Positions 5,285-47,750 of a DNA stretch of 64,000 bases are shown here, in pieces. The stretch is from Heterodontus francisci. Lineage: Eukaryota. The translations under genes were made by a program, and so were the position numbers. The notes beneath the pieces were generated by a model that searched no databases, was not told the DNA's origin, and worked only from the letters and a program-made list of their open reading frames with translations. The DNA lies in the NCBI RefSeq assembly GCF_036365525.1, contig NC_090377.1:31712201-31776200 (forward strand), given 5' to 3'. Every line of letters starts with the position of its first letter. Position 1 is the first letter of the stretch.

Positions 5285-5795
5285 GAGAAGCAAAAGCAAC
5301 ATGAGGAAAAACTTTTTCACGCAGCGAGTGGTTAAGGTTTGGAATGTGTGCCAGAGAGTGTGGTGGAGGCAGGTTCAAAAGAAGCATTCAAAAGGGAATT
5401 AGACTGTTATATGAAAATGAAGAATGTGCAGGGTTATGAAGAGAAAGCGGGGGAGTGGCAGTAAATAAATTGCTCTTTCGGAGAGCCGGTGCAGACATGA
5501 TGGGCTGAATGGCCTCCTTCTGCGCTGTAACAATTCTGTGATTCTGTTATATACTGAAGGAAGACACTGGAATATGTTGAGCACTTCCCATATGAACATA
5601 TGAACATAGGAATTAGGAGCAAGAGTAGGCCACTTGGCCCTTGAGTCTGCTCTGACATTCAATAAGATCATGGCTGACCTGATTGTAACCTCGACTCCAC
5701 ATTCCTGCCTACCCCCGCTAACCTTTCACCCCCTTGCTTAACAAGAATCTATCTACCCCTGCCTTAAAATATCTAAAGATATGCTTCCACTGCCT
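5285..5795. mobile_element. Two CR1 3'-end fragments (+ at ~5285-5550, - at ~5595-5795)
   Basis: CR1 C-terminal FFTQRVV..WN motif followed by the gggctgaatggcctcct 3' UTR. The second piece is the reverse complement of a CR1 3' UTR. Confidence 0.7.
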
Positions 5796-6659
5796 TCATA
5801 CAAATATCTTGACAGCCACCTCTCTCAAAAGGCCACCATTGACGAAGAGATCCAACACTGGATCAGTTGCGCCAGCTCAGCCTTCTACAAACTATGGCTG
5901 TGAGTGTTTGACAACAAAGATCTCTGCAAGTCAACAAAAGTCCTGGTGTACAGAGCAGTTGTCATCACCACACTCCTGTACTGTAGTGAGACCTGGACTG
6001 TGTATCAGCGACACATGAGAATGCTAGAGAAATTCCATCAGCAACGCCTCTACCGCATCCTCCAGATTCAATGGGAGGACTGTCGAACAAATGCTTGTGT
6101 CCTTCCTGAAGCCAGCTCCACAAGCATTCTGGCAAAACCCTTGCAAAATCAGCTTTGATGGACTGGACACTGTATCCAGATGGCCGAAAACAGTCTCCCC
6201 CACCGTGCTGTTTTCTCAACAAAGAAAATGCTTCAAAGACAGTCTGAAGCTCCCTTTGAACCACGGCAGCATTGGCATTGATGGCTGGGAGGAGCTTGCC
6301 ACTAATTGTTCAAAATGATGACAACTTGTCCATCAAGCTGAATCATGCTTTGAGTCTAAACGCCTTAATGATGAGGCAGAGCAGCGGCAGAGGAGAGAAA
6401 AGGAAGCAGATCCTGCACTCTGGATCCCACTACCTTGTGGGACATCTTGCCCCATTGCCCAAAGACCTGTAAGTCGAGAATCGGCCTGTTCAGTCACATG
6501 AAGACCCATGGCAGAAACTCGTGACCCTGAGTAGATATCATCCTCGAATTGAGGGACAGCTGACGATGACTTGGTGAACTCTTTTTTTATTCTTGTCACT
6601 AGTCGGCATCTATGTCTTCTTGAGCTGTGGCCTGTTGTGGCTTCTGACCACTGCCAATG

Positions 6660-14930: not shown

Positions 14931-15840
14931 CTTAGAGAAAAACCAAAACCAAAGACTCACCTCAATGCATGCAGTCGGTCTATAATGGATTATATTCCTA
15001 GTCCCTCTTTGGGGATATCCCGGATCAGGCATACTTCTCAGATGATCATGCCCTACTTAAGGTTGAGAAAGACCGATCCCAAAGACACTTGAATGGATCT
15101 GAAGGACTGATTTAACTCTTCCTAAAGGAAAGGAACCATCTGAGAATATTTCCATCCTCCAAGATAGCCTTTTTAACAAGTTTAATCCAGATTATAATAG
15201 CCCAGATATTATAAGGGTCTCAGAATCTCTCCTCAGTAATGCATCTCCTCATCAAACAGTGTACAGAGTTCACGAGTTAGTGATACAGAAGACTATGTGA
15301 GGCAATATAATTTCTAAATTATATAAAAATTTATTAAAGAACTGAACATGCAATTCACAGTTGGTTGGACAGTCAATCGCAACATTAATAGCTCTAGGAA
15401 AAGAAAGAAATTCTTATTTCTGGTAGAGAATCCAATTTTTAAATCCTGTTACAACCAGGTGAGCAATGTCTAGGGGTCTTTTGCTATCTTTACCTGGTCT
15501 TATTGTAACAGGGTTTAATCTTTAAACACAGTGGGCTGAATTTTATTGGGGCGCCGCTGCGGACGGCATCGCCCTTTGAACTCAGCGGAGTGCCCACATT
15601 CGCTGGCCACTGCCAAGCCCCAGTGATATTAATCGTGGGGGCCTCATTAGAATCACGGGCTGAGCTGCCCTCCCCATATTACGTGGGGAGAGGTGGGACA
15701 TTTGGCACAGTGAGAGAGTCTTTGACAGCTGTGCAGCAGGTGCTGGGGCCCTATTCTAAGCACTCCAGCACCTGCTTCCTGACAGCTGTCAAAGAAGTAC
15801 TTACCTGACTGCTGAAGAGTGGGGCTGCTGTCAATCTGGC

Positions 15841-18485: not shown

Positions 18486-19104
18486 CGCCGGCTTTTCAGA
18501 TTGTGAATGGGACGGCACGTGACAGCCGCCCGTTCAATGAAAAATCTGGCAGTGTCGGTGGAGAGTCGGCGGGCTGCATAATCAACATAGTTAAGTAAGC
18601 ATTACCATATGCTACATGTGGTGCCACCGCCATGTGGTGGGGGGGCCGTACCGAGGTCCCGCCGCCGCCGGTAAAATGCTGCAGGCCTGTCTCGACGTTG
18701 CGGTTTGAGGCGGGCCTCTCACCGCAGCATTTTACCGGCCCCGCGCCACGACCTGCGGCATCGAGTGGCCGGTAAAATTCAGCCTAGTGTGTTTTGAGCT
18801 CCCCTTTGTGTGAATCCTTGTTCACAGTTTCCAATTATAAGGCAAAGAACTGAGCGCACACAGGCTTTCTTTGGTTTAAAGCAGAAAGATGAAATTTATT
18901 AAACCTTAAACTTAAACTCTCATATGGTTCACACTTACAGATACATGACGCGCTCACGCAAGCATGCACACGTGATATAAACATGCAAAATAGGGACAGA
19001 AAAGAGCAGAAGAAAAGATAAGTAGAACAGTTTGAGGTAATATCTTGTTACTGTTTCTTGAGCTCACTGTAGTCTTTGATTAAAAATATAGTCTTACATT
19101 TCGT

Positions 19105-19451
19105 TTTTTTTTAGAGATACAGCACTGAAACAGGCCCTTCGGCCCACCGAGTCTGTGCCGACCATCAACCACCCATTTATACTAATCCTACACTAATTCC
19201 ATATTCCTACCTCATCTCCACCTGTCCCTATATTTCCCTACCACCTACCTATACTAGGGGCAATTGCTAATGGCCAATTTACCTATCAACCTGCAAGTCT
19301 TTGGCATGTGGGAGGAAACCGGAGCACCCGGAGGAAACCCACGCAGACACAGGGAGAACTTGCAAACTCCACACAGGCAGTACCCAGAATTGAACCCGGG
19401 TCACTGGAGCTGTGAGGCTGCGGTGCTAACCACTGCGCCACTGTGCCGCCC
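19105..19451 (-). mobile_element. HE1-type tRNA-derived SINE (V-SINE group)
   Basis: The minus strand begins GGGCGGCACAGTGGCGCAGTGGTTAGCACCGCAGCCTCACAGC..GGGTTCAATTC, contains the central gtttcctccgggtgctccggtttcctccc domain, and ends in a CR1-like tail. Nearly identical to ~38050-38388. Confidence 0.9.
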
Positions 19452-20114
19452 ATGTTTGTTCACATGGCAAACCTCTCTCTCTTTGAGTTTCAAGTGTTTT
19501 CACAAGATTCAGTTCCATGGGAAGAGATGAAGGCAGGCAGACTGGAGACAGGCAGGCAGAGGAGATCTTCTCAGTCCATGAGCACATGGCGTTCTGCCTG
19601 GCAATTCCTTTGTTGGGAGTTCAAAAACTCTGCCACAGCCAGTCAGTCCTGTGACTAAAACTGGTCTGACCACTTCTGTGTATTGGAAGAACAGGCACTG
19701 GCTCCCTTTGTTTCCACATTGTCTGGTACTATGCAAATGTCCTTCCAGTCAGAGATTGCAATTTTTAAAGTTTTAATGTTCATATGGCGAAATAATGTAT
19801 GCCTCAGTCTTGTCAGGTAGGGTTTGCCTGACAAATCCAAATACTGTTACAGTAAAATATTTAAGTAGGATATCCATCAATTATTAAGTAACATTTACCT
19901 TAAAATCCTGAGTAGAAAACTACAGAGTGAGCGAGATAGCTCTGTCCCAGTTAAGGGGAGAACTATCATCGTCTCACTCCAATAGTCATATTTTTACCGT
20001 GAGAGACATTGGAGAGAGGTCAATAAATCTGAAAATCCAATGTGTATCTCTGATATTTATACTGTTTTCCAAGTTGCATAACTAATTTTTTTTTATGTAT
20101 CAGGGTGTTACCAT

Positions 20115-25239: not shown

Positions 25240-25694
25240 CTTGAGATGGCTTGGCCATGTGAGCCGCATGGAAGATGGCAGGATCCCCAAAGACACATTG
25301 TACAGCGAGCTCGCCACTGGTATCAGACCCACCGGCCGTCCATGTCTCCGTTATAAAGACGTCTGCAAACGCGACATGAAATCGTGTGACATTGATCACA
25401 AGTCGTGGGAGTCAGTTGCCAGCATTCGCCAGAGCTGGCGGGCAGCCATAAAGACAGGGCTAAATTGTGGTGAGTCGAAGAGACTTAGTAGTTGGCAGGA
25501 AAAAAGACAGAGGCGCAAGGGGAGAGCCAACTGTGCAACAGCCCCAACAAACAAATTTCTCTGCAGCACCTGTGGAAGAGCCTGTCACTCCAGAATTGGC
25601 CTTTATAGCCACTCCAGGCGCTGCTTCACAAACCACTGACCACCTCCAGGCGCGTATCCATTGTCTCTCGAGATAAGGAGGCCCAAAAGAAGAA
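25240..25694 (+). mobile_element. 5'-truncated RTE LINE insertion
   Basis: LRWLGHVSRMEDGRIPKDTLY..CSTCGRACHSRIGLYSH, an (AAG)n tail, and a perfect 11-bp TSD GTTAGATCACA (25229-25239 and 25695-25705). Confidence 0.95.
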
Positions 25695-31130: not shown

Positions 31131-31380
31131 TTTTCATGAGTTTCTTTGTGTTATCTTATGCAACACAATGAGGTATGTGGATTCCAGTTCCTTGAAGATC
31201 TCTAGAAGGTTTATTAACTAGTACATACAATACAGAGAAAAATATATACAGAATGTTTGTTTAGGGTGTTACAGTGCAGAGTGACTGTGGCTTCTAGTCA
31301 CATGACTACATCCTGGCACTTAGCTCATTAGCATACTGAGTTCTTAAAGGGACATCACTCTTAAAGCCATCATGCACCAT
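31131..31380 (-). repeat. Putative 3' LTR of the myc-carrying Gypsy element
   Basis: Directly follows the polypurine tract GGAAAGAAAGGGG (+ strand ccccttctttcc-like run at ~31381-31393), starts TG, contains AATAAA (~31210-31215), and abuts CR1 sequence at ~31130. The terminal CA is degraded. Confidence 0.65.
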
Positions 31381-31639
31381 CCCCTTTCTTTCCAAAGATA
31401 AGTCTCATAGGCTACAGGTAAAAACACATAAAATTGGACAATATCAAAATTATTTATACAGGGATAAAGATTATAAAATTTACAAGCATACAGATAGGGA
31501 TTGTGAAATTTACAAGTGCAGAAGCTTAAGAGTCCATATATTGTTTTGGTGGTTTGACAACTCTTCCAGATCTTGTTATGGTACGACCTTCTGGGGATAT
31601 GGGTTTCATCCTTCTTTTTCGAGCAGCATATCCTGCACC

Positions 31640-33279
31640 TCAGAGAATTTTGTGTTCTTCCTGAAGTTTGTCCTTCTCTGCATTCAGTTTCTGTTGCTCT
31701 ACCTTCAGCCTGCTAATGTATTCTGTTGCTTTTCTCAGGATGACCACTTTTGAGGCCTTGTGTCATGCAGGCCAAGAATGAGACACATTAATTTCGCCAC
31801 ATGAACATTGATTTTTAAACTGCTACTGGAGTAAAGAAAGAACTTGTTTTTTTTTTTAAAAAACAGACCCTTGACTGGAAAAACATTTGCATCATAACAG
31901 ACAGTACTTGGAAAAGACAAAGGGGCCACTCCCTGCTCCAATTTAATCCACAATGGACTTTTCATTACCAGACGTTGAAGGTGGAGAAGCTAGCATTCCA
32001 GGCTAACTACTAAGATGGCTAAATACACAAACAGATGTGGTCAGACCAGTTTAGTCACATGACTAACTGGCTGTTGGAGTTTTTTGAATTTGAACTTGCC
32101 ACAGAGTTTTAAAACTCAGAAAGCTGTTTGTTCCTGGACTAGAAAAGACCTGTCCTCTCCTCTCCTGTCTCATCTCTCTCTCCAGCTTCAGAAACCATTG
32201 AAGGCATCTGAACCCCAAGAGAGAAAAGTCTCCTACAGTGAACAAGATTTAAGAAGAATACTGGGCCCCAATGAAAAACAAGATCTACCTGCAAGCAAGG
32301 ACTACAGTGAGCTCAAAGTATAATAACAGAAACCCTTCTTCAGAGATTGCCTCAAACCTCTCTACTTTATTTTTCTTCTGCTCTTTTCTGTCTCTATTTG
32401 CATGTACGTATCACGTATGCATGCTAGCATGGGGCGCGGTGTGTATCCGTAGGTGTTAACTGAATTAGAGTATAAGTTTAAGTTTTAATAAATTTCACTT
32501 TTCTTCTTTAAACCTAAGAAAGTCTGTTTGTGCTCATTTCTTTGCCTCATAATTGGAAAGTGAACAAGGATTCACCAATGGGGAGCTAAAACACAGTGTG
32601 TTTAAAAGATAAACACTGTTACAATAAGACATAAGACCAGGTGACGGTTTAGAAAGATCTCTAGAAACCTTTCTCACCTGGTCGTAACACCTTGTCATTC
32701 TTGGAAAGTTCTGGCACCTCATCCTGAAGAGCAAACAGACCATGCTTCAACTCATTCCTCCTCTGCCTCTTCAGGACATTGTGTGTCCTTTTCCTCTCCT
32801 CATCCTCTGCATCTAAAGGCCTGGGACTTAAGGTCAAGGACTTGTTGGGAGGAGGAATACTTGGCATCATGGAGGTACCTGTCCGTTCTGGCTTGTTTTG
32901 GTGCTGGCGGTTCTCCAGAGAGCAGAGGTGAGGGCGCGGCATAGTTGTGCTGTTGCTGGATTTCCAGACTGCACCATTTGATGCTGGCCAGAGTCTGCGA
33001 GTGGGTTTCGTTCTTGAAGATTTCCCCTTGGCAATGGTTCCCACTGCCAGCCTTTGCTTCTCAATGGTTACAATGCCAATCTCTTCTTCTGAGTTACTGG
33101 AGCGGAAAGAAATGCTGCCTGTTGACAAAGAACTTTCACCATCTGAATTTGGATGTTTATTTTCTTGCCGCAGCATCTCTGAGAAGGGGCTGAAACTCTC
33201 CAAACCAGAACAACTGAGATCCTGGAAGAATTGTGACTCAATCTCAGACATCAGGGGGCTGGACACATGGAGTGACACC
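31640..33279 (-). pseudogene. myc: Intronless myc-family retrocopy (MbIII region through bHLH-ZIP; lacks MbI/MbII; Mych-like), split by a solo LTR
   Basis: Motifs QFFQDLS; SNSEEEIGIVTIEK (MbIIIb); IKWCSLEIQQQHNYAAPSP..PPAPKQAR (MbIV/NLS, in a shifted frame at ~32885-32985); SPRPLDAEDEERKRTHNVLKRQRRNELKHGLFALQDEVPELSKNDK. After the LTR it continues ASKVVILRKATEYISRLKVEQQKLNAEKDKLQEEHKIL*. Confidence 0.93.
31761..32689 (+). mobile_element. Solo LTR (family A) inserted in the myc bHLH loop
   Basis: TGTCATGC...GTCGTAACA termini, perfect 5-bp TSD CCTTG (31756-31760 and 32690-32694), and AATAAA at ~32487. Confidence 0.95.
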
Positions 33280-33760
33280 TCTCTGAGGTGCAATATGGCA
33301 TCGCCTTTGAAATCTCCTATAGAGTCGAACCTGTCCGGGTACATTTGTTGTAATTCCTGGACTGACTCAATGTGGGTAGCCATGGTCTCTTCTGCTGTAA
33401 AGGGTATCTTTGTGCTCTCGTGGATAGTCATGATGTTGAGGTCTTTACACACTGGTAGTCCTGCCACTGCTTGTCCATTCGTGTCTACCAGGTAAAATAT
33501 TTATGTTTTCCATGCCTATTTGGCATTGTTCGTGTGCCACTGCAAGGGATTGGTGACCCATTGTATACAGTTAACTTTGCAGTTGTCAGTTGTATCATTA
33601 ATTTCCAATGATCCCGGTACATATCCTTCAGGATTCGGTCTGGTAGGATATTTGCACTAGCGCCCATGTCAATCTTAGTCCTGAGTGTGTATTTGTCAAT
33701 TTTCTTTGGGAACATGATATTAACAGTAGCAAAAGCTTCCAGTTGTTTCAGGTTCACAAT
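33280..33760 (-). pseudogene. Gypsy aspartic protease and pol linker
   Basis: LRTKIDMGASANILP (degenerate DTG active site), AKLTVYNGSPI, and then MYPDRFDSIGDFKGDAILHLRE. Confidence 0.85.
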
Positions 33761-33949
33761 GTGAAATGCCTGCTTGTCTTGTGGCTAAGAATTGCTCCAC
33801 TCTGAGTCTTGTCTGAGGCCTATTTTGCTGTGGAAATCGTGAATTGGCCTGCATTTACGTAGGTCTCTGGCACTCCTTGCTGCTGTTGCCATGTTGCTGT
33901 GCCTGTCTTCTGTTTATTTGTGTCTGCTTGTGATTTCTGGCTACGTCTT

Positions 33950-34654
33950 TGGAGCCAGATTTCTTGCATAGGCAGGCCCACTGTCCTTTTGCACCACAAG
34001 TCTTGCACTGATCTTGAAATGCAGGATAATGTCATGGTGAGTGGGACAAAACACACTTACCACACAGCTTGCTTGCTTTTTGTGACCTGCTTACCTGCCG
34101 ATACTGTTGGTTGCACATAATGCTTGCAGATGCTGTTGTCCAGCTACAATGGCTTTGTATTTCTTGCCATCTTCTAGCAGCGCATCAATGCTGTGACCCT
34201 TCTTTTTCCCCAAGAGGTCTTTTTGAAATGCTTCAATAGGTGTTGAGACAATCACTAGCTCCATTATGCACTCCGACAGCTCAGTTTCTGAAAAATTGCA
34301 TTCATTGCCCTTACTGCAGCATCTACTGATGAATTGATTTATTGATTCCTGTGGCTGTTGCCTGTAGGACATCAGTTCCAGGTGATGAATTCTAAAGTTC
34401 ACTCTTATCCGAAGCTGATCTTCTGGCACTTTCCATGTCTTTGCGGGATCTTTCTGGTCCTCTTCAGATAAGCCAGAGGTATTGATTCTGTATAACCCCT
34501 CATTTCCAACTGTTATCAATATTTTCACAGACTGCTTCTCTGGTTCTGCAACCGCTTGGTCTATGAAGCATAGCTGCATTCTTTGTTTAAAAGGTTTGAA
34601 CTCAGATAGGATATCAATAGCCTTCCAGTTCATGCTGGGAAATTTGATATCCAT
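33950..34654 (-). pseudogene. Gypsy gag (Mag-like) with double Cys/His knuckle
   Basis: ORF 34091..34654 (RQQPQESINQFISR..ECNF), followed by CGKCVLSH..PAFQDQCKTCGAKGQWACLC. Confidence 0.85.
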
Positions 34655-35384
34655 CCTTCTGCTGTTCTTTTGCTTTCTGTTCTATATTTAGCTTTTTTCA
34701 GTTCTGTGTGTGCCTTCATCACTGTACTTGTTATGACTTTTCTATTTGTGGCTTAAAACTTTTTTAAAAACTTGTTCTATTAACTCTGCGCTGTTCCCCC
34801 TTTAAGAAATTCTTTTTTAAGCCAGCTGCTTTGATTGAGTATAACAGGTGCTTGAGAGTGTTCTTTCTTTTTTCTCTTTCAGCACTTGGCTTCTATGTTT
34901 ACACAGTTGTTCGATGGGCAGTTCAAGCTTGACTGGTTTAATTATATTTTTTAGCTTGATTACTTTAATGGAGAGTCGGGGCGGGGGGGGGGGGTTCCAT
35001 GCTTTTTTCCCACTATTGGACTTGTTTTTTTTTCAGTTCACATGTTTTTCAGAGTTTTCTCCATTTCTTTTTCTTGCTTACACAGAGCCTTTAGAAAATT
35101 ATTTTTTTTAAACTCTTTGAAGGCTTTTTTTTTTACTGGGATTGCAGTCTCAGCAGCGCCCACCTGCTGAGGGCTGCTGAGGCTTCAGAGCTGCTAGCCC
35201 TCTGATTGGTCTGACAGCATCAGGAGCCTGCTCGCCATTATTAATTGGATGGAGGGCCCACAGGCAACCAGTTAGGAGGCCACCAGTGGCAAAATCGCCA
35301 AGCCGATCCTGCTACTGGCAAGTGTGGGTTTGGGACATGCTTTTCAGCCCAACAGTTCTGAAGCCCATGGTAAAATTCAGCCAA

Positions 35385-38388: not shown

Positions 38389-41300
38389 CCACCTATTTTA
38401 GTATCATCTGCAAATTTGGCTATTGTACCTTCTATCCCTGCATCCAAGTCATTTATATGGATTGTAAATAGTTGGGGCCCGAGGACCGAACCCTGTGGCA
38501 CCCCACTAGTTACATCTTGCCAAACAGAAAAAGACCCATTTATCCCGACTCTCCATTTTCTGTTGGTTAGCCAATCCTCTATCCAACCTAATAAATTGCC
38601 CCTAATCCCATGTGATCTTACCTTGTGTATTAACCTTTTGTGCTGCACCTTATTAAATGCCTTCTGGAAGTCCAGATAAACTATATCTACAGGATCCCCA
38701 TTATCTACTTTGCTTGTTACAGCTTCGAAGAACTCTAACAAATTAGTCAAACACGATTTACCCTTCATAAAACCATGCTGACTCTGATGGATTGCGTTTT
38801 GACTTTCTAAATGTCCTGTTATTAATTCCTTAATAATGGAATCTAACAATTTCCCTACGACAGATGTGAAACTAACTGGTCTATAGTTTCCTACTTTCTG
38901 CCTCCCTCCCTTTTTCAATAAGGGCGTTACATTAGCTTTTTTCCAATCCACTGGAACCTTTCCTGTATCCAGAGAATTTTGGAATATTATAACCAATGGA
39001 TCCACTATCTCCATTGCCTCTTCCTTTAAGACCCTAGGATGTAGGCCATCAGGTCCTGGGGACTTGTCTGCCTTCAACCCCAATAGTTTGCTCAGTTCTT
39101 TTTCCCTAGTGATGATGATTGTTCCAAGTTCCTCCCTTTCTATAACCTCTGCATTACCTGTTTCTATTGGGATGGTACTAGTGTCCTCCACCATGAAAAC
39201 TGAGGCAAAATACTGATTTAGTGTCTCTGCCATTTCTGTGTTCCCTTCTATTTACTCCCCAGTCTCATCTTCCAAAGGACCAACATTCACTTTAGCTACT
39301 CTCTTCCCTTTTATATACTTATAGAAGCTTTTGCTATCCATTTTTATATTTTGCACTAGTTTCATAATTTACATTTGCTCTTTTTATTACTTTTTAGTAA
39401 CCCTTTGTTGATCTTTAAAAGTTTCCCAATCTTCCAGCCTGCCACTGGCCTTTGCAATATGGTATGCCTTAGTTTTTGTCTTTATGTTATCCTTAACTAC
39501 CTTGCTTAGCCATGGATGTTTTGTCCTCCTCCTAGAATCTTTCTTCCTCTCTGAAATATATTTTAGTTGGGATAAACTGAATATCTCCTTAAACATCTGC
39601 CACTGCTCATCAACTGTCCTACCTTGTAGTCTTCCTCCCTAGTCCACTAGGGCCATATCTGTCCTCATGCTGATATAAATACCTTTGTTTAACTCCAGAA
39701 AGCTCGTGTGGAACTCCAGCTTCTCACCCTTAACAATACGATTATTTATTAATCCCACCTCATTACACAACACCAAATCTAGAATAGCCTACTCCATGGT
39801 TGGTTCCACAACATATTGCTCCAAAAAACAATCTCTAATACATTCAATAAACTCTCCCTTGAGGCTACCCTTGCCAATTTGACTAATCCAGCCTATTTCT
39901 TTGGCTTCCTTATCTCGAGAGACAATGGGTAAGCACCTGGAGGTGGTCAGTGGTTTGTGAAGCAGAGCCTGGAGTGGCTATAAAGGCCAATTCTAGAGTG
40001 ACAGACTCTTCCACAGGTGCTGCAGATAAAATTGGTTGTCGGGGCTGTTACACAGTTGGCTCTCCCCTTGCACTTCTGTCTTTTTTCCTGTCAACTGCTA
40101 AGTCTCTTCGACTCACCACTCTTTAGCCCCGCCTTTATGGCTGTCCGCCAGCTCTGGCAATCACTGGCAACTGACTCCCACGACTTGTGATCAATGTCAC
40201 AGGACTTCATGTCACGTTTGCAGACGTCTTTAAAGCGGAGACATGGACGGCCGGTGGGTCTGATACCAGTGAAGAGCTCAATGTACAATGTGTCCTTGGG
40301 GATCCTGCCATCTTCCATGCAGCTCACATGGCCAAGCCATCTCAAGCGCCGCTGGCTCAGTAGGGTGTATATGCTGGGGATGTTGGCTGCCTCGAGGACT
40401 TCTGCGTTGGAGATACGGTCCTGCCACCTGATGCCAAGGATTCTCCAGAGGCAGCGAAGATGGAATGAATTGAGACGTCGCTCTTGGCTGACATACGTTG
40501 TCCAGGCCTTGCTGCCGTAGAGCAAGGTACTGAGGACACAGGCTTGATACACTCGGACTTTTGTGTTCCGTGTCAGTGCGCCGTTTTCCCACACTCTCTT
40601 GACCAGTCTGGACATAGCAGCGGACGCCTTTCCCATGCGCTTGTTGATTTCTGCATCGAGAGACAGGTTACTGGTGATAGTTGAGCCTAGGTAGGTGAAC
40701 TCTTGAACCACTTCCAGAGTGTGGTCGCCGATATTGATGGATGGAGCATTTCTGACGTCCTGTCCCATGATGTTCATTTTCTTGAGGCTGATGGTTAGGC
40801 CAAATTCATTGCAGGCAGCCCCAATCCTGTCGATGAGTCTCTGCAGACACTCTTCTGTGTGGGATATTAATGCAACATCATCAACAAAGTGGAGTTCCCT
40901 GATGAGGACCTTCCGTACTTTGGTCTTCACTCTTGGACGGGCAAGGTTGAACAACCTGCCATCAGATCTTGTGTGGAGGAAAATTCCTTCTTCTGAAGAC
41001 TTGAACACATGTGAGAGCAGCTGGGAGAAGAAGATCCCAAACATTGTAGGTGTGAGAACACAGCCCTGTTTCACACTGCTCAGGATAGGAAAGGGGTCTG
41101 ATGAGGCGCCGCTATGCTGAATTGTGCCTTTCATATTCTAGTCTATATGCATATTAAAATCACCCATGATTATTACCGTACCTTTCTTACAAGCCCCCAA
41201 TATTTCCTGGTTTATACTGTGTCCCATTGCAGAACTACTGTTTGGGGACCTATAGATTACTCCCACCAGTGACTTCTTTCCCTTGCTATTTCTTATTTCT

Positions 41301-45254: not shown

Positions 45255-47750
45255 CACAGAATCGCAGAATTGTTACAGCACAGAAGAAGGCCATTCAGCC
45301 CATCATGTCTGCACCGACTCTCCAAATGAGCAATTCACCTAGTGCCAGTCCCCTGCCTTCTCCTTATAACCTTGCACATTCTTCCTTTACAGATAACAGT
45401 CTAATTCCCTTTTGAATGCCTCAATTGAACCTGCCTGCGCCATTCCCTCAGGCAGTGCATTCCAGACCTGAACCACCCGCTGTGTGAAAAAGTTTTTCCT
45501 CATGGCTCCATTGCTTCTGTTGGCAATTACCTTAAACCTGTACCTTCTCGCTCTTGATCCTTTCATGAGTGGGAACAGTTTCTTCCTATCTACTCTGTCC
45601 AAACCCCTTATGATTTTGAATACCTCTATCAAATCTCCTCTCAGCCTTCTTTTCTCCAAGGAAATCAGTCCCAACTTCTCCAATCTATCTTCATAACAGA
45701 AGTTCGCCATTCCTGGAACCCTTCTCATGAATCTTTTCTGTACTCTAATACCTTTACATCTTTCATAAAATGCAGTGCCCGGAATTGGATGCAATACTCC
45801 AGCAAAGGTCGAACTAGTGTCTTATACAAGTTCAACATAACCTCCTTGCTCTTGTAATCTATGCCCCTATTAATAAAGCCCAAGATGCTTTATGCTTTAT
45901 TAACTTCTCTCTCAACCTGTCCTGCCACCTTCAAAGACTTACTCACATATACACCCAGGTTACTCTGCTCCTGCACCCTCTTTACAGTTGTATTGTCTTT
46001 CCATGTTTTTCAAACCAAAATGAATCACTTCACATTTCTCCACATTGAACTTCATCTGCCGCCTGTTCGCCCATTCCACAAAATTCTCTAAGTTCTTTTG
46101 AAGTTCAAAAATATCTTCCTCACAGTTCACAATGCTTCCAAGTTTTCTATCATGCACAGATTTTTAAATTGTGCTCCGTACACTAAGGTCCTCCTTTTAC
46201 CATCTTTTTACTATTTATAAGCCTATAGAAGACTTTGAGCTTCCCTTTTATGTTAGCTGCCAGTCTCTTTTCCTATTGTTACAACCAGGTGTGAAAGGTG
46301 TCTAGGGGTCTTTTACAGCCTTCACTTGGTCTTATTGTAAATTTTAATTTTAAACACTATGTGTTTTGAGCTCCACCTTGGTGCATCCTTGTTCACCATT
46401 TTCCAACTATAAGGGAAAGAAATGAGCACAGCCAGGTTTTCTCAGGTTTAAAGAAGAAAAGTGAAATTTATTAAACCTTAAACTTAAACTCTAATTTGGT
46501 TAATGCCTATGCTAGCGCCATGCTAGCATGCATACGCAATGCCCACATGCAAATGGAGACAGAAAAGAGCAGAAGAAAAAATAAAGTAAAAATGTTTGAG
46601 GCAATCTCTGAAGAGGGGTTTTTTACTGTGCTTTGAGCTCACTGTAGTCCTTGATTAGAGGCAGTCTTGCTTTTTGTTGGGGCCCAGTATTCTTCTTATT
46701 CTTCACTGTAGGAGACTTTTCTCTCTTGAGGTTCATGTGTCTTCAATGGGTCTCCAGTTCCGTGAGAAAGAAATGGGAGCAGACAGGAGAGAGATCTTTC
46801 AAGTCCAAGAGCAAGGAGCTTTCTGAGTTTCCAACACTCAGTGACAAGTTTAAATTCAAACAGCCAGTTAGTCATGCGATTAAACTGGTCTGACCAGGTC
46901 ATCTGTGTCTTGGAGAAGCAGGGTCCTTTGGTCCTTTGTTCCAAAATGGTCTGCCAGCATGCAAAAAAAGTCTTTCTGGCAAGGGGCCTGGTAATTCCTT
47001 GTGAGAGGCCCTGCTTTCTTCCCAGCAGCAACTTTAAGTTTTAATGTTCATGTGGCAAAATAATGTGTGCCTCATTCTTGGCAGGTGGGGGCCTGCATGA
47101 CAATATTCTCCCTTTGCTTCTCTTATTTGCTTTTTCACTTCCCCTCGGAACCTTATATATTCAGCCGGTTTTATCATTGTATTGTCCATCTGACATCTGT
47201 CATAGTACATTTTTTCTTCTTCACCTTAATCACTATCTTTTTTGTCATCCAGAGAACTCTGCATATATGTGCCCTACCTTTCCCCTTCCAGGGAATATAC
47301 CTTGACTATGCCCAAACTATCTCTTCTTTGAAGGTAGTCCTTTGTTCAGCTACTGTTTTTCCTGTCAACATTTGATGCCAATTTATTCAGCCCAGATGCA
47401 TTTATACCCCATGAAGTTGGCTTTCCCCCAGTTTATTATTCTCACTCTAGATTTTTCTTTGTTCTTTTCCATAGCCAACCTAAACTTTATGATACAAGGA
47501 TCACTATCCCCTAAATGTTCTCCTACCGTTATTTGATCCACCTGGCCCACCTCATTCTCAAAAACTAGGTCCAACAATGCCTCCCCTCTTGGACTGGAAA
47601 CAAATTGCTGTAGAAAATTTTCCTGAACACACTCTAGGAACTCTTGTCCCTCTCTGCCCTACTACTACTATCCCAGTCTATATTTGGATAATTAATGTCC
47701 CCCATTATAACTACTCTATAATTCTTGCACCTCTCTGTAATTTCCTTGCA
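45255..47750 (-). mobile_element. CR1 LINE (internally deleted) split by a solo LTR
   Basis: Motifs LEKRRLRGDLIEVFK and MKFNVEKCEVIHFG. The EN end (GEHLGDSDP) lies after the LTR. Confidence 0.85.
46277..47102 (-). mobile_element. Solo LTR (family A)
   Basis: TGTTACAACC...GCATGACA termini, homologous to the other two copies. The TSD is imperfect. Confidence 0.88.

What the first reader, a model, noticed from the sequence alone, without database searches (positions are those of the whole stretch)
31131..34654. Gypsy LTR retrotransposon that has captured a spliced myc proto-oncogene (fossil v-myc-like transduction)
Seen: on the minus strand the order is gag, Zn knuckles, protease, pol linker (..GDAILHLRE), ~0.7 kb of myc coding sequence, integrase tail (TITRSGRVVKPPKQYMDS*), PPT and LTR. 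RT, RNaseH and the integrase core are absent and myc sits in their place. The conserved myc exon2/exon3 junction (SSNS-EEEI, ~33090) has no intron, implying an mRNA source. Established: acutely transforming retroviruses such as avian MC29 are replication-defective gag-myc fusions that arose this way and depend on helper virus. Inference: this is an analogous capture by a non-retroviral Gypsy element in a fish germline, potentially mobilised in trans. I am not aware of a described case.
Basis: partly seen in the sequence, partly recalled or inferred. Interest (0 to 1): 0.95.

Follow-up and report, generated by a model that had tools for sequence, protein, structure and literature searches.

The report
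Shark retrotransposon family carrying captured myc
A jumping-gene family in a horn shark genome once swapped its copying enzymes for two-thirds of a myc-family messenger RNA and then spread to a few hundred places; every copy examined is now broken, and it lacks the part of Myc that switches genes on.

Summary
It is a non-autonomous Gypsy-type LTR element whose RT, RNase H and integrase core are replaced by codons 121-357 of the single host gene mych. The 1,707-nt intron is removed exactly. Both junctions lie at short matches shared by parent pol and mych (GGATGCA, CAAATT), and both are in frame. The genome holds 196 pol|myc junctions and 213 spliced exon junctions, against 728 parent-type junctions. 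Of 20 copies fetched, 14 keep both LTRs; 10 of 11 examined have their own 5-bp target duplication, exact or one mismatch off. Assembly artefact and LINE insertion are refuted. The v-myc analogy holds for how it formed, not for what it does: Myc boxes I and II were not captured, 0 of 21 copies are intact, and the myc part evolves near-neutrally (pN/pS 0.91; gag 0.69). The mechanism is published (Tan 2016). I found no report of a myc-carrying family or one of this size. The scan earlier noted a different LTR-flanked shark retrocopy in another genome.

The parts
34655..35143 (-). Remnant of the element's 5' untranslated region; the 5' LTR and primer-binding site are missing in this copy
   Evidence: DNA match to the UTR of other copies begins at 35143; only one LTR match in the window
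34094..34654 (-). gag, capsid part, open for 187 codons
   Evidence: 56% to gag-pol P0013, E 4e-57
33791..34093 (-). Rest of gag with two degenerate Cys/His zinc knuckles (from 34064); stops and frameshift
   Evidence: tblastn to P0013/P0014; motif positions
33501..33790 (-). Aspartic protease, active-site motif read as D-M-G at 33670 (DTG in P0013); broken
   Evidence: Pfam gave no hit for this frame
33280..33500 (-). Protease-RT linker ending GDAILHLRE
   Evidence: 18 of 20 sampled RT-bearing loci match the protease-linker DNA at 76-87%, most up to this point
33273..33279 (-). 5' switch point: 7-nt match GGATGCA shared by parent pol and host mych, in frame (mutated in this copy)
32690..33277 (-). 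Captured mych coding sequence, first part (from host codon 121 to the loop of the HLH); spliced exon junction at 33089/33088
   Evidence: 83% and 90% DNA identity to the two host exons; intron absent
31761..32689 (-). Later nested solo-LTR-like insertion (TG...CA) with 5-bp duplication CAAGG; not part of the family
   Evidence: none of the 20 other copies is interrupted at this site
31651..31760 (-). Captured mych, helix 2 and leucine zipper; host stop codon and 3' UTR not captured
31646..31651 (-). 3' switch point: 6-nt match CAAATT shared by host mych and parent integrase, in frame
   Evidence: 4 RT-bearing loci, host, 6 copies
31526..31645 (-). Integrase C-terminal tail with an internal deletion shared with copy L037
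31380..31392 (-). Polypurine tract
31132..31379 (-). 3' LTR (about 248 bp; TG...CA in other copies), with a conserved CATGTG E-box at 31304-31299

Best explanation
An ancient non-autonomous Gypsy-type LTR retrotransposon family made by LTR-mediated retroposition. A spliced mych mRNA was packaged with an element RNA (inferred). Reverse transcriptase switched templates twice at 6-7-nt matches (junction matches shown, switching inferred), replacing about 2.2 kb of pol with 711 nt of mych. The product kept both LTRs, the primer-binding site, the polypurine tract, gag and protease. The abundant RT-bearing parent family then copied it in trans (inferred from the missing RT and integrase) to a few hundred loci, through several master lineages marked by shared tail deletions. 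The myc fragment most likely rode along as a passenger, and the copies examined have since decayed. Capture happened once.
For: One donor: the uncaptured N-terminus finds one 100% locus and one 43% paralogue. The intron is removed in 20 of 20 fetched copies and in the window, with no poly(A), stop or 3' UTR. The 5' junction is the same in 20 of 20. Microhomologies at both ends. Genome counts of 196, 213 and 155 for the three diagnostic junctions, controls 0; parent-type junction 728. Both LTRs in 14 of 20; distinct 5-bp duplications, 6 exact and 4 with one mismatch, of 11. Single origin: chimeras are near-fixed at 9 of 10 columns where parents vary. Shared tail deletions at unlinked loci: classes of 11, 2, 2 and 2 copies, plus 2 with the full tail. 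Passenger: CpG-masked pN/pS is 0.91 for myc and 0.85 for the bHLH-LZ, against 0.69 for gag and 0.60 for the parent linker; transitions only, shared versus private variants p=0.52 for myc and p=0.01 for gag. 0 of 21 myc and 0 of 18 gag segments are free of stops and frameshifts.
Against: Both junctions are in frame (chance about 0.14-0.17), no frameshift in myc is shared among copies, and the largest tail-deletion class keeps the frame (modal distance 168 nt; 6 of 11 in frame). One of several tests gave a weak excess of synonymous changes among myc variants shared by 3 or more copies (21:30 versus 99:288, p=0.029 uncorrected); it was not significant within transitions (p=0.16). The tree is nearly star-like (internal 0.10 versus terminal 1.46), so the test has little power: 'passenger' means selection not detected, not selection excluded. 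The 20 copies were the best-scoring of 40 scored hits, a biased sample.
Confidence: 0.8

Rival explanations
1. Same origin, but the Myc fragment helped the element spread. The single Gag-PR-Myc-tail frame yielded a Myc bHLH-LZ without activation boxes that bound Max or E-boxes, for instance the element's own LTR, or dampened host Myc signalling in the germ line or early embryo.
For: Both junctions are in frame. No shared frameshift in myc. All four tail deletions leave the zipper essentially whole. Gag shows a purifying signal, so the frame may have been translated in master copies. CATGTG sits at one LTR position in 24 of 31 LTRs. The family reached about a quarter of the parent's junction count.
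Against: Myc pN/pS is 0.91. Two of four tail-deletion classes shift the frame. The E-box is also in 3 of 3 parent LTRs, so it predates capture, and it is never CACGTG. Contigs from two organism labels show derivatives that skip the first part of myc (joints 5425-5612 and 5425-5812). Copies were chosen for a whole myc, so 'deletions spare myc' is partly built in.
Confidence: 0.12
2. The chimera arose at the DNA level, by recombination or repair between an integrated element and an existing processed mych copy, and was then mobilised as above.
For: The junction sequences alone cannot tell an RNA template switch from microhomology-guided DNA repair with a cDNA (inference).
Against: It needs an extra step. 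The uncaptured N-terminus finds no retrocopy, only the host locus and one paralogue (2 matches of 21 candidates). Only 3 residues are clearly element-derived and shared, so the donor was close to the live gene.
Confidence: 0.05
3. LINE-mediated insertion of a myc retrocopy into a dead Gypsy element, spread by segmental duplication; or an assembly chimera.
For: The genome is rich in LINE-like repeats (read; class recalled). One pair on the same contig, L025 and L032, is nearly identical in part.
Against: Pol is replaced, not interrupted. There is no poly(A), 3' UTR or duplication around myc. Flanks and target duplications differ between copies. About 200 junctions lie on dozens of contigs. Contigs from a second organism label bridge the junction.
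Confidence: 0.01

Closest known systems
LTR-mediated retroposition in animals (Tan et al. 2016, PMC5131818; section 5 and passages read)
   Same: Internal ORF replaced by a partial spliced mRNA; microsimilarity of about 6 nt at the switch points; no poly(A); both LTRs kept; two Drosophila cases found at more than one site and read as non-autonomous elements.
   Different: [quoted passage not shown] Here: one capture amplified to at least about 200 copies with subfamilies, old (LTR pairs 8-23% diverged), in a shark, carrying a myc-family gene. 'Oncogene' does not occur in that paper's main text.
Acutely transforming retroviruses with gag-myc (MC29 and relatives; recalled, not from a call)
   Same: Helper-dependent genome in which spliced myc replaces replication genes, in frame with gag.
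   Different: Gypsy element with no env seen; spread in the germ line; donor is mych; Myc boxes I and II absent; no selection on myc detected; protease retained upstream of myc.
Ty3/Gypsy single-ORF gag-pol elements such as P0013 and P0014; Mag-like clade is a recalled label
   Same: Gag, two knuckles, protease and linker align; the parent locus L062 has PR-RT-RH-IN in order.
   Different: The chimera lacks RT, RNase H and the integrase zinc finger and core.
LINE-made retrocopies of oncogenes in vertebrate genomes (10.64898/2026.06.26.734816; passages read)
   Same: Intron-less copies of cancer-gene mRNAs in the germ line.
   Different: Those are tied to non-LTR elements; 'myc', 'Heterodontus' and 'horn shark' do not occur in its main text; supplements closed.

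Membership tests
Ty3/Gypsy LTR retrotransposon (non-autonomous derivative) | Paired LTRs with TG...CA ends | tested here: met
   14 of 20 fetched copies have both; ends seen; the window copy has only the 3' LTR
Ty3/Gypsy LTR retrotransposon (non-autonomous derivative) | Short target-site duplication | tested here: met
   5 bp: 6 exact, 4 with one mismatch, 1 none, of 11 examined
Ty3/Gypsy LTR retrotransposon (non-autonomous derivative) | Primer-binding site and polypurine tract | tested here: met
   A conserved TGGTG(G/A)CAG-type motif follows the 5' LTR and a purine tract precedes the 3' LTR in most of 11 copies; which tRNA it matches was not tested
Ty3/Gypsy LTR retrotransposon (non-autonomous derivative) | Parent pol order PR-RT-RH-IN | tested here: met
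   P0013 Pfam domains align in order along L062
Ty3/Gypsy LTR retrotransposon (non-autonomous derivative) | Placement in an RT tree apart from BEL and retroviruses | not tested
   No RT tree was built; assignment rests on domain order and Pfam
LTR-mediated retrocopy (Tan 2016) | Intron loss | tested here: met
LTR-mediated retrocopy (Tan 2016) | Internal ORF replaced, not interrupted | tested here: met
LTR-mediated retrocopy (Tan 2016) | Microsimilarity at switch points | tested here: met
   7 nt and 6 nt
LTR-mediated retrocopy (Tan 2016) | No poly(A) or LINE-type duplication around the mRNA piece | tested here: met
Acutely transforming v-myc retrovirus | Helper-dependent, myc in frame with gag | tested here: met
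   helper dependence inferred from the missing RT and integrase
Acutely transforming v-myc retrovirus | Myc activation region (boxes I and II) retained | tested here: not met
   Capture starts at residue 121; the motifs lie at 42 and 100 (box labels recalled; role of the N-terminal boxes from PMC11369687 section 7)
Acutely transforming v-myc retrovirus | Retroviral, infectious lineage | tested here: not met
   No env-sized segment between the integrase tail and the 3' LTR in copies or in RT-bearing loci L063 and L065
Acutely transforming v-myc retrovirus | Transforming activity | not testable with these tools
   All 21 copies examined are broken

The most novel reading that the evidence does not exclude
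A non-retroviral LTR element gained a host transcription-factor DNA-binding module and used it. The in-frame Myc bHLH-LZ, stripped of activation boxes, acted on the E-box in the element's own LTR or on host Max/Myc signalling in the early embryo or germ line and favoured the family's spread: a selected, germ-line counterpart of oncogene transduction.
Probability: 0.12. Interest if true: 0.9.

Novelty: new variant of a known kind. Interest (0 to 1): 0.62.

Why it matters
It is a clean vertebrate germ-line fossil of the process that made viral oncogenes, with donor gene, parent element, both switch points and hundreds of daughter copies in one genome. It shows that an LTR-captured host mRNA can become a transposon family in its own right, far beyond the few insertion sites reported in flies. 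The copy number makes testable a question that single retrocopies cannot answer: is captured cargo selected during element spread? It also explains several spurious 'N-myc-like' gene models (P0001, P0002, P0003, P0006, P0009), which would inflate myc family counts for this shark.

Tried and rejected
Pfam found no gag, knuckle or protease family in the window's broken frames; these assignments rest on tblastn to P0013/P0014. A guessed parent-junction pattern gave only 3 hits at 2 mismatches and was replaced by one copied from a real locus. The first dN/dS run used a wrong exon boundary and crashed (only its pattern-recall figure, 16 of 21, is used); one search corrects it. Uncorrected pairwise dN/dS (myc 0.68, gag 0.51) overstated selection; CpG masking and a transitions-only comparison were applied. 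L032 was dropped as non-independent of L025. One search timed out after the myc and gag trees. Recombination with helper copies as the source of the gag signal was considered: the linker tree mixes chimeras and parents with little support, but 9 of 10 parent-variable columns are near-fixed in chimeras, so it was not shown; gag itself could not be tested this way with one parent gag. Frame spans were noisy and are superseded. Protein searches found chimeric proteins only under the name Heterodontus francisci (11 hits, 6; length-limited, weak evidence of absence elsewhere). No RNA holder is listed on record; the runs laid are contigs, three guessed to be RNA and one of unknown kind, so expression is not shown. 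Literature searches: horn shark+myc+retrotransposon 0 papers; Heterodontus+genome+LTR+myc 0; mych+myc+shark 0; listings showed no report of this family. PMC13297096, PMC13320880 and PMC4859993 passages gave nothing on it. Supplements were not read; retrocopy tables of 10.64898/2026.06.26.734816 (closed) and PMC13320880 may list these loci. No structure or complex prediction was run.

Full report
Observation. The minus strand from 34654 to 31132 reads gag, two degenerate knuckles, protease, linker, myc, integrase tail, polypurine tract and LTR. The myc bHLH is real: Pfam HLH positions 1-35 and 35-53 fall on either side of an insert, and the best PDB matches are Myc. The insert at 31761-32689 has TG...CA ends and a 5-bp duplication and is a later arrival. 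The window holds no 5' LTR for this copy.

Donor. The closest named proteins are horn shark (Heterodontus francisci) models and shark 'myelocytomatosis oncogene homolog' proteins, the mych paralogue (mych naming from the listing and passages). The uncaptured N-terminus of P0004 matches one genome locus at 100% and one paralogue at 43%. That locus (L041) encodes P0004 exactly, with one 1,707-nt GT..AG intron. The window matches the two exons at 83% and 90% and joins them at the splice site. The captured piece is codons 121-357 of 366, without the stop, 3' UTR or poly(A). The motifs I recall as Myc boxes I and II lie at residues 42 and 100, outside it; boxes IIIb and IV and the bHLH-LZ lie inside.

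Family. A linker-plus-myc query gave 4,358 first-look candidates; all 40 places scored were near full length, the 39 besides the window at 84-87% identity. Patterns allowing three mismatches count 196 pol|myc junctions, 213 spliced exon junctions and 155 myc|integrase junctions, with 0 in the reversed controls. The same patterns recover 16, 12 and 15 of my 21 copies, which suggests roughly 220-370 copies; the sample is biased to well-kept copies. I fetched 20 of the 39 other places with flanks. All 20 show linker then myc, 14 have both LTRs, and of 11 examined 6 have an exact and 4 a near-exact 5-bp target duplication, each different. Each copy is therefore a separate integration.

Parent and switch points. 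Unnamed gag-pol proteins P0013 and P0014 are relatives with RT, RNase H and integrase. Their RT finds many loci in the genome (130 scored). Of 20 sampled, 18 match the window's protease-linker DNA at 76-87%, most ending exactly at the junction. A parent-type junction pattern counts 728. Parent pol and mych share GGATGCA at the 5' switch and CAAATT at the 3' switch, both in the same codon phase. RT-bearing loci share the LTR and tail with the chimera. At 9 of 10 columns where parents vary, chimeras are near-fixed: one capture. Deletions in the tail are shared among unlinked loci in classes of 11, 2, 2 and 2, and two copies keep the whole tail. This means repeated rounds of copying from altered masters; the two small classes B1 and B2 may share an origin.

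Age. LTR pairs differ by K2P 0.08-0.23, median 0.13, in 11 copies. Trees are star-like. Of 13 horn-shark-specific residues in the captured part, 7 are shared with the copies, 4 are not and 2 are unclear. Capture thus falls roughly a third to a half of the way back along this lineage; the counts are small and I give no date in years. In public contigs of a second organism label, one record bridges the pol|myc junction (X6 record 9) and two join linker to myc across a deletion (X5 record 2, X6 record 8); X8 record 23, of the first label, also bridges it. The family is probably older than that split. These runs do not show expression.

Was the cargo used? None of 21 myc segments and none of 18 gag segments is free of stops and frameshifts, and no myc frameshift is shared beyond homopolymer sites. 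After masking CpG columns, pN/pS is 0.91 for myc, 0.85 for its bHLH-LZ, 0.69 for gag, 0.72 for the chimeric linker and 0.60 for the parent linker. Among transitions, shared variants are enriched for synonymous changes in gag (p=0.01) but not in myc (p=0.52). Against this reading: one myc test gave p=0.029 uncorrected; both junctions are in frame, with a chance of about 0.14-0.17; and the largest deletion class keeps the frame. Two other classes do not. The LTR carries CATGTG at one position in 24 of 31 LTRs, but also in 3 of 3 parent LTRs. Power is low because internal branches are short. I put 0.8 on passenger and 0.12 on a used cargo. The gag signal may mean that masters made their own Gag, or that they exchanged gag with helpers; this is unresolved.

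Germ-line access. In zebrafish, mych is not maternal and switches on broadly just after the mid-blastula transition (PMC3958507, passages). If sharks are similar, capture in the early embryo is plausible; this is inference.

Known and new. The mechanism is that of Tan et al. 2016 (PMC5131818; section 5 and passages), which already proposes re-mobilisation of such chimeras. The element works like a helper-dependent transducing retrovirus in how it formed and spread. It is not a v-myc virus: no env was seen and the activation boxes are missing. I found no paper on this family (supplements not read). What is new is the cargo, the scale of amplification and the completeness of the record. Verdict: new variant of a known kind, interest 0.62.

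Noticed in passing
P0012, on a contig of the same length as the one holding mych: An NCBI model of the sugar transporter SLC2A10 begins with this element's gag and myc bHLH-LZ; either a mis-annotation or exonisation of a chimeric copy upstream of the gene.
   Followed up: partly
P0001, P0002, P0003, P0006, P0009: Five 'N-myc-like' or 'myc-like' gene models look like copies of this element (linker before myc in four, integrase-tail end in P0009), not true myc paralogues.
   Followed up: partly
P0004, P0007, P0008, P0010, P0011 versus PMC3958507 Fig. S1 legend: Five sharks have a protein named as the mych gene, whereas the 2014 paper says mych has no known homologue in other vertebrates; orthology was not tested.
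   Followed up: no
window 31761-32689; also window 46277-47082, 18788-19834, 15447-15533; L021, L030, L041, L064: The nested solo-LTR family is common, sits inside other copies of this element and its parent, and also in the mych locus 3' of the coding region.
   Followed up: partly
L025 and L032 (both on G000:C40, about 1.26 Mb apart): The linker is about 1% and myc about 3% different, yet the tails belong to different deletion classes: likely gene conversion or recombination between copies.
   Followed up: partly
G000:C10:18909785-18910593 (-) and L024 at C10:18918845 (+): Two copies lie about 8 kb apart in opposite orientation and share a junction variant; L024 lacks its 3' end. Possibly a local inverted duplication.
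   Followed up: no
L036:5425-5812 joints in runs X5-X8: Derivatives that skip the end of the linker and the first part of myc occur under both organism labels; a possible further subfamily.
   Followed up: no
window 31304-31299 and matching LTR position in copies and parents: A conserved palindrome-like E-box (CATGTG core) in the LTR, of a type I recall as bound by bHLH-LZ factors.
   Followed up: partly
window 25240-25691 and 39897-40346: A 450-bp repeat in inverted orientation, 92% alike, on either side of the element 14 kb apart; probably two copies of a dispersed repeat.
   Followed up: no
L034:7120-8741 (oriented coordinates, reverse strand): A second, more distant Gypsy-like gag-PR-RT remnant lies next to this copy (28-33% to P0013).
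   Followed up: no
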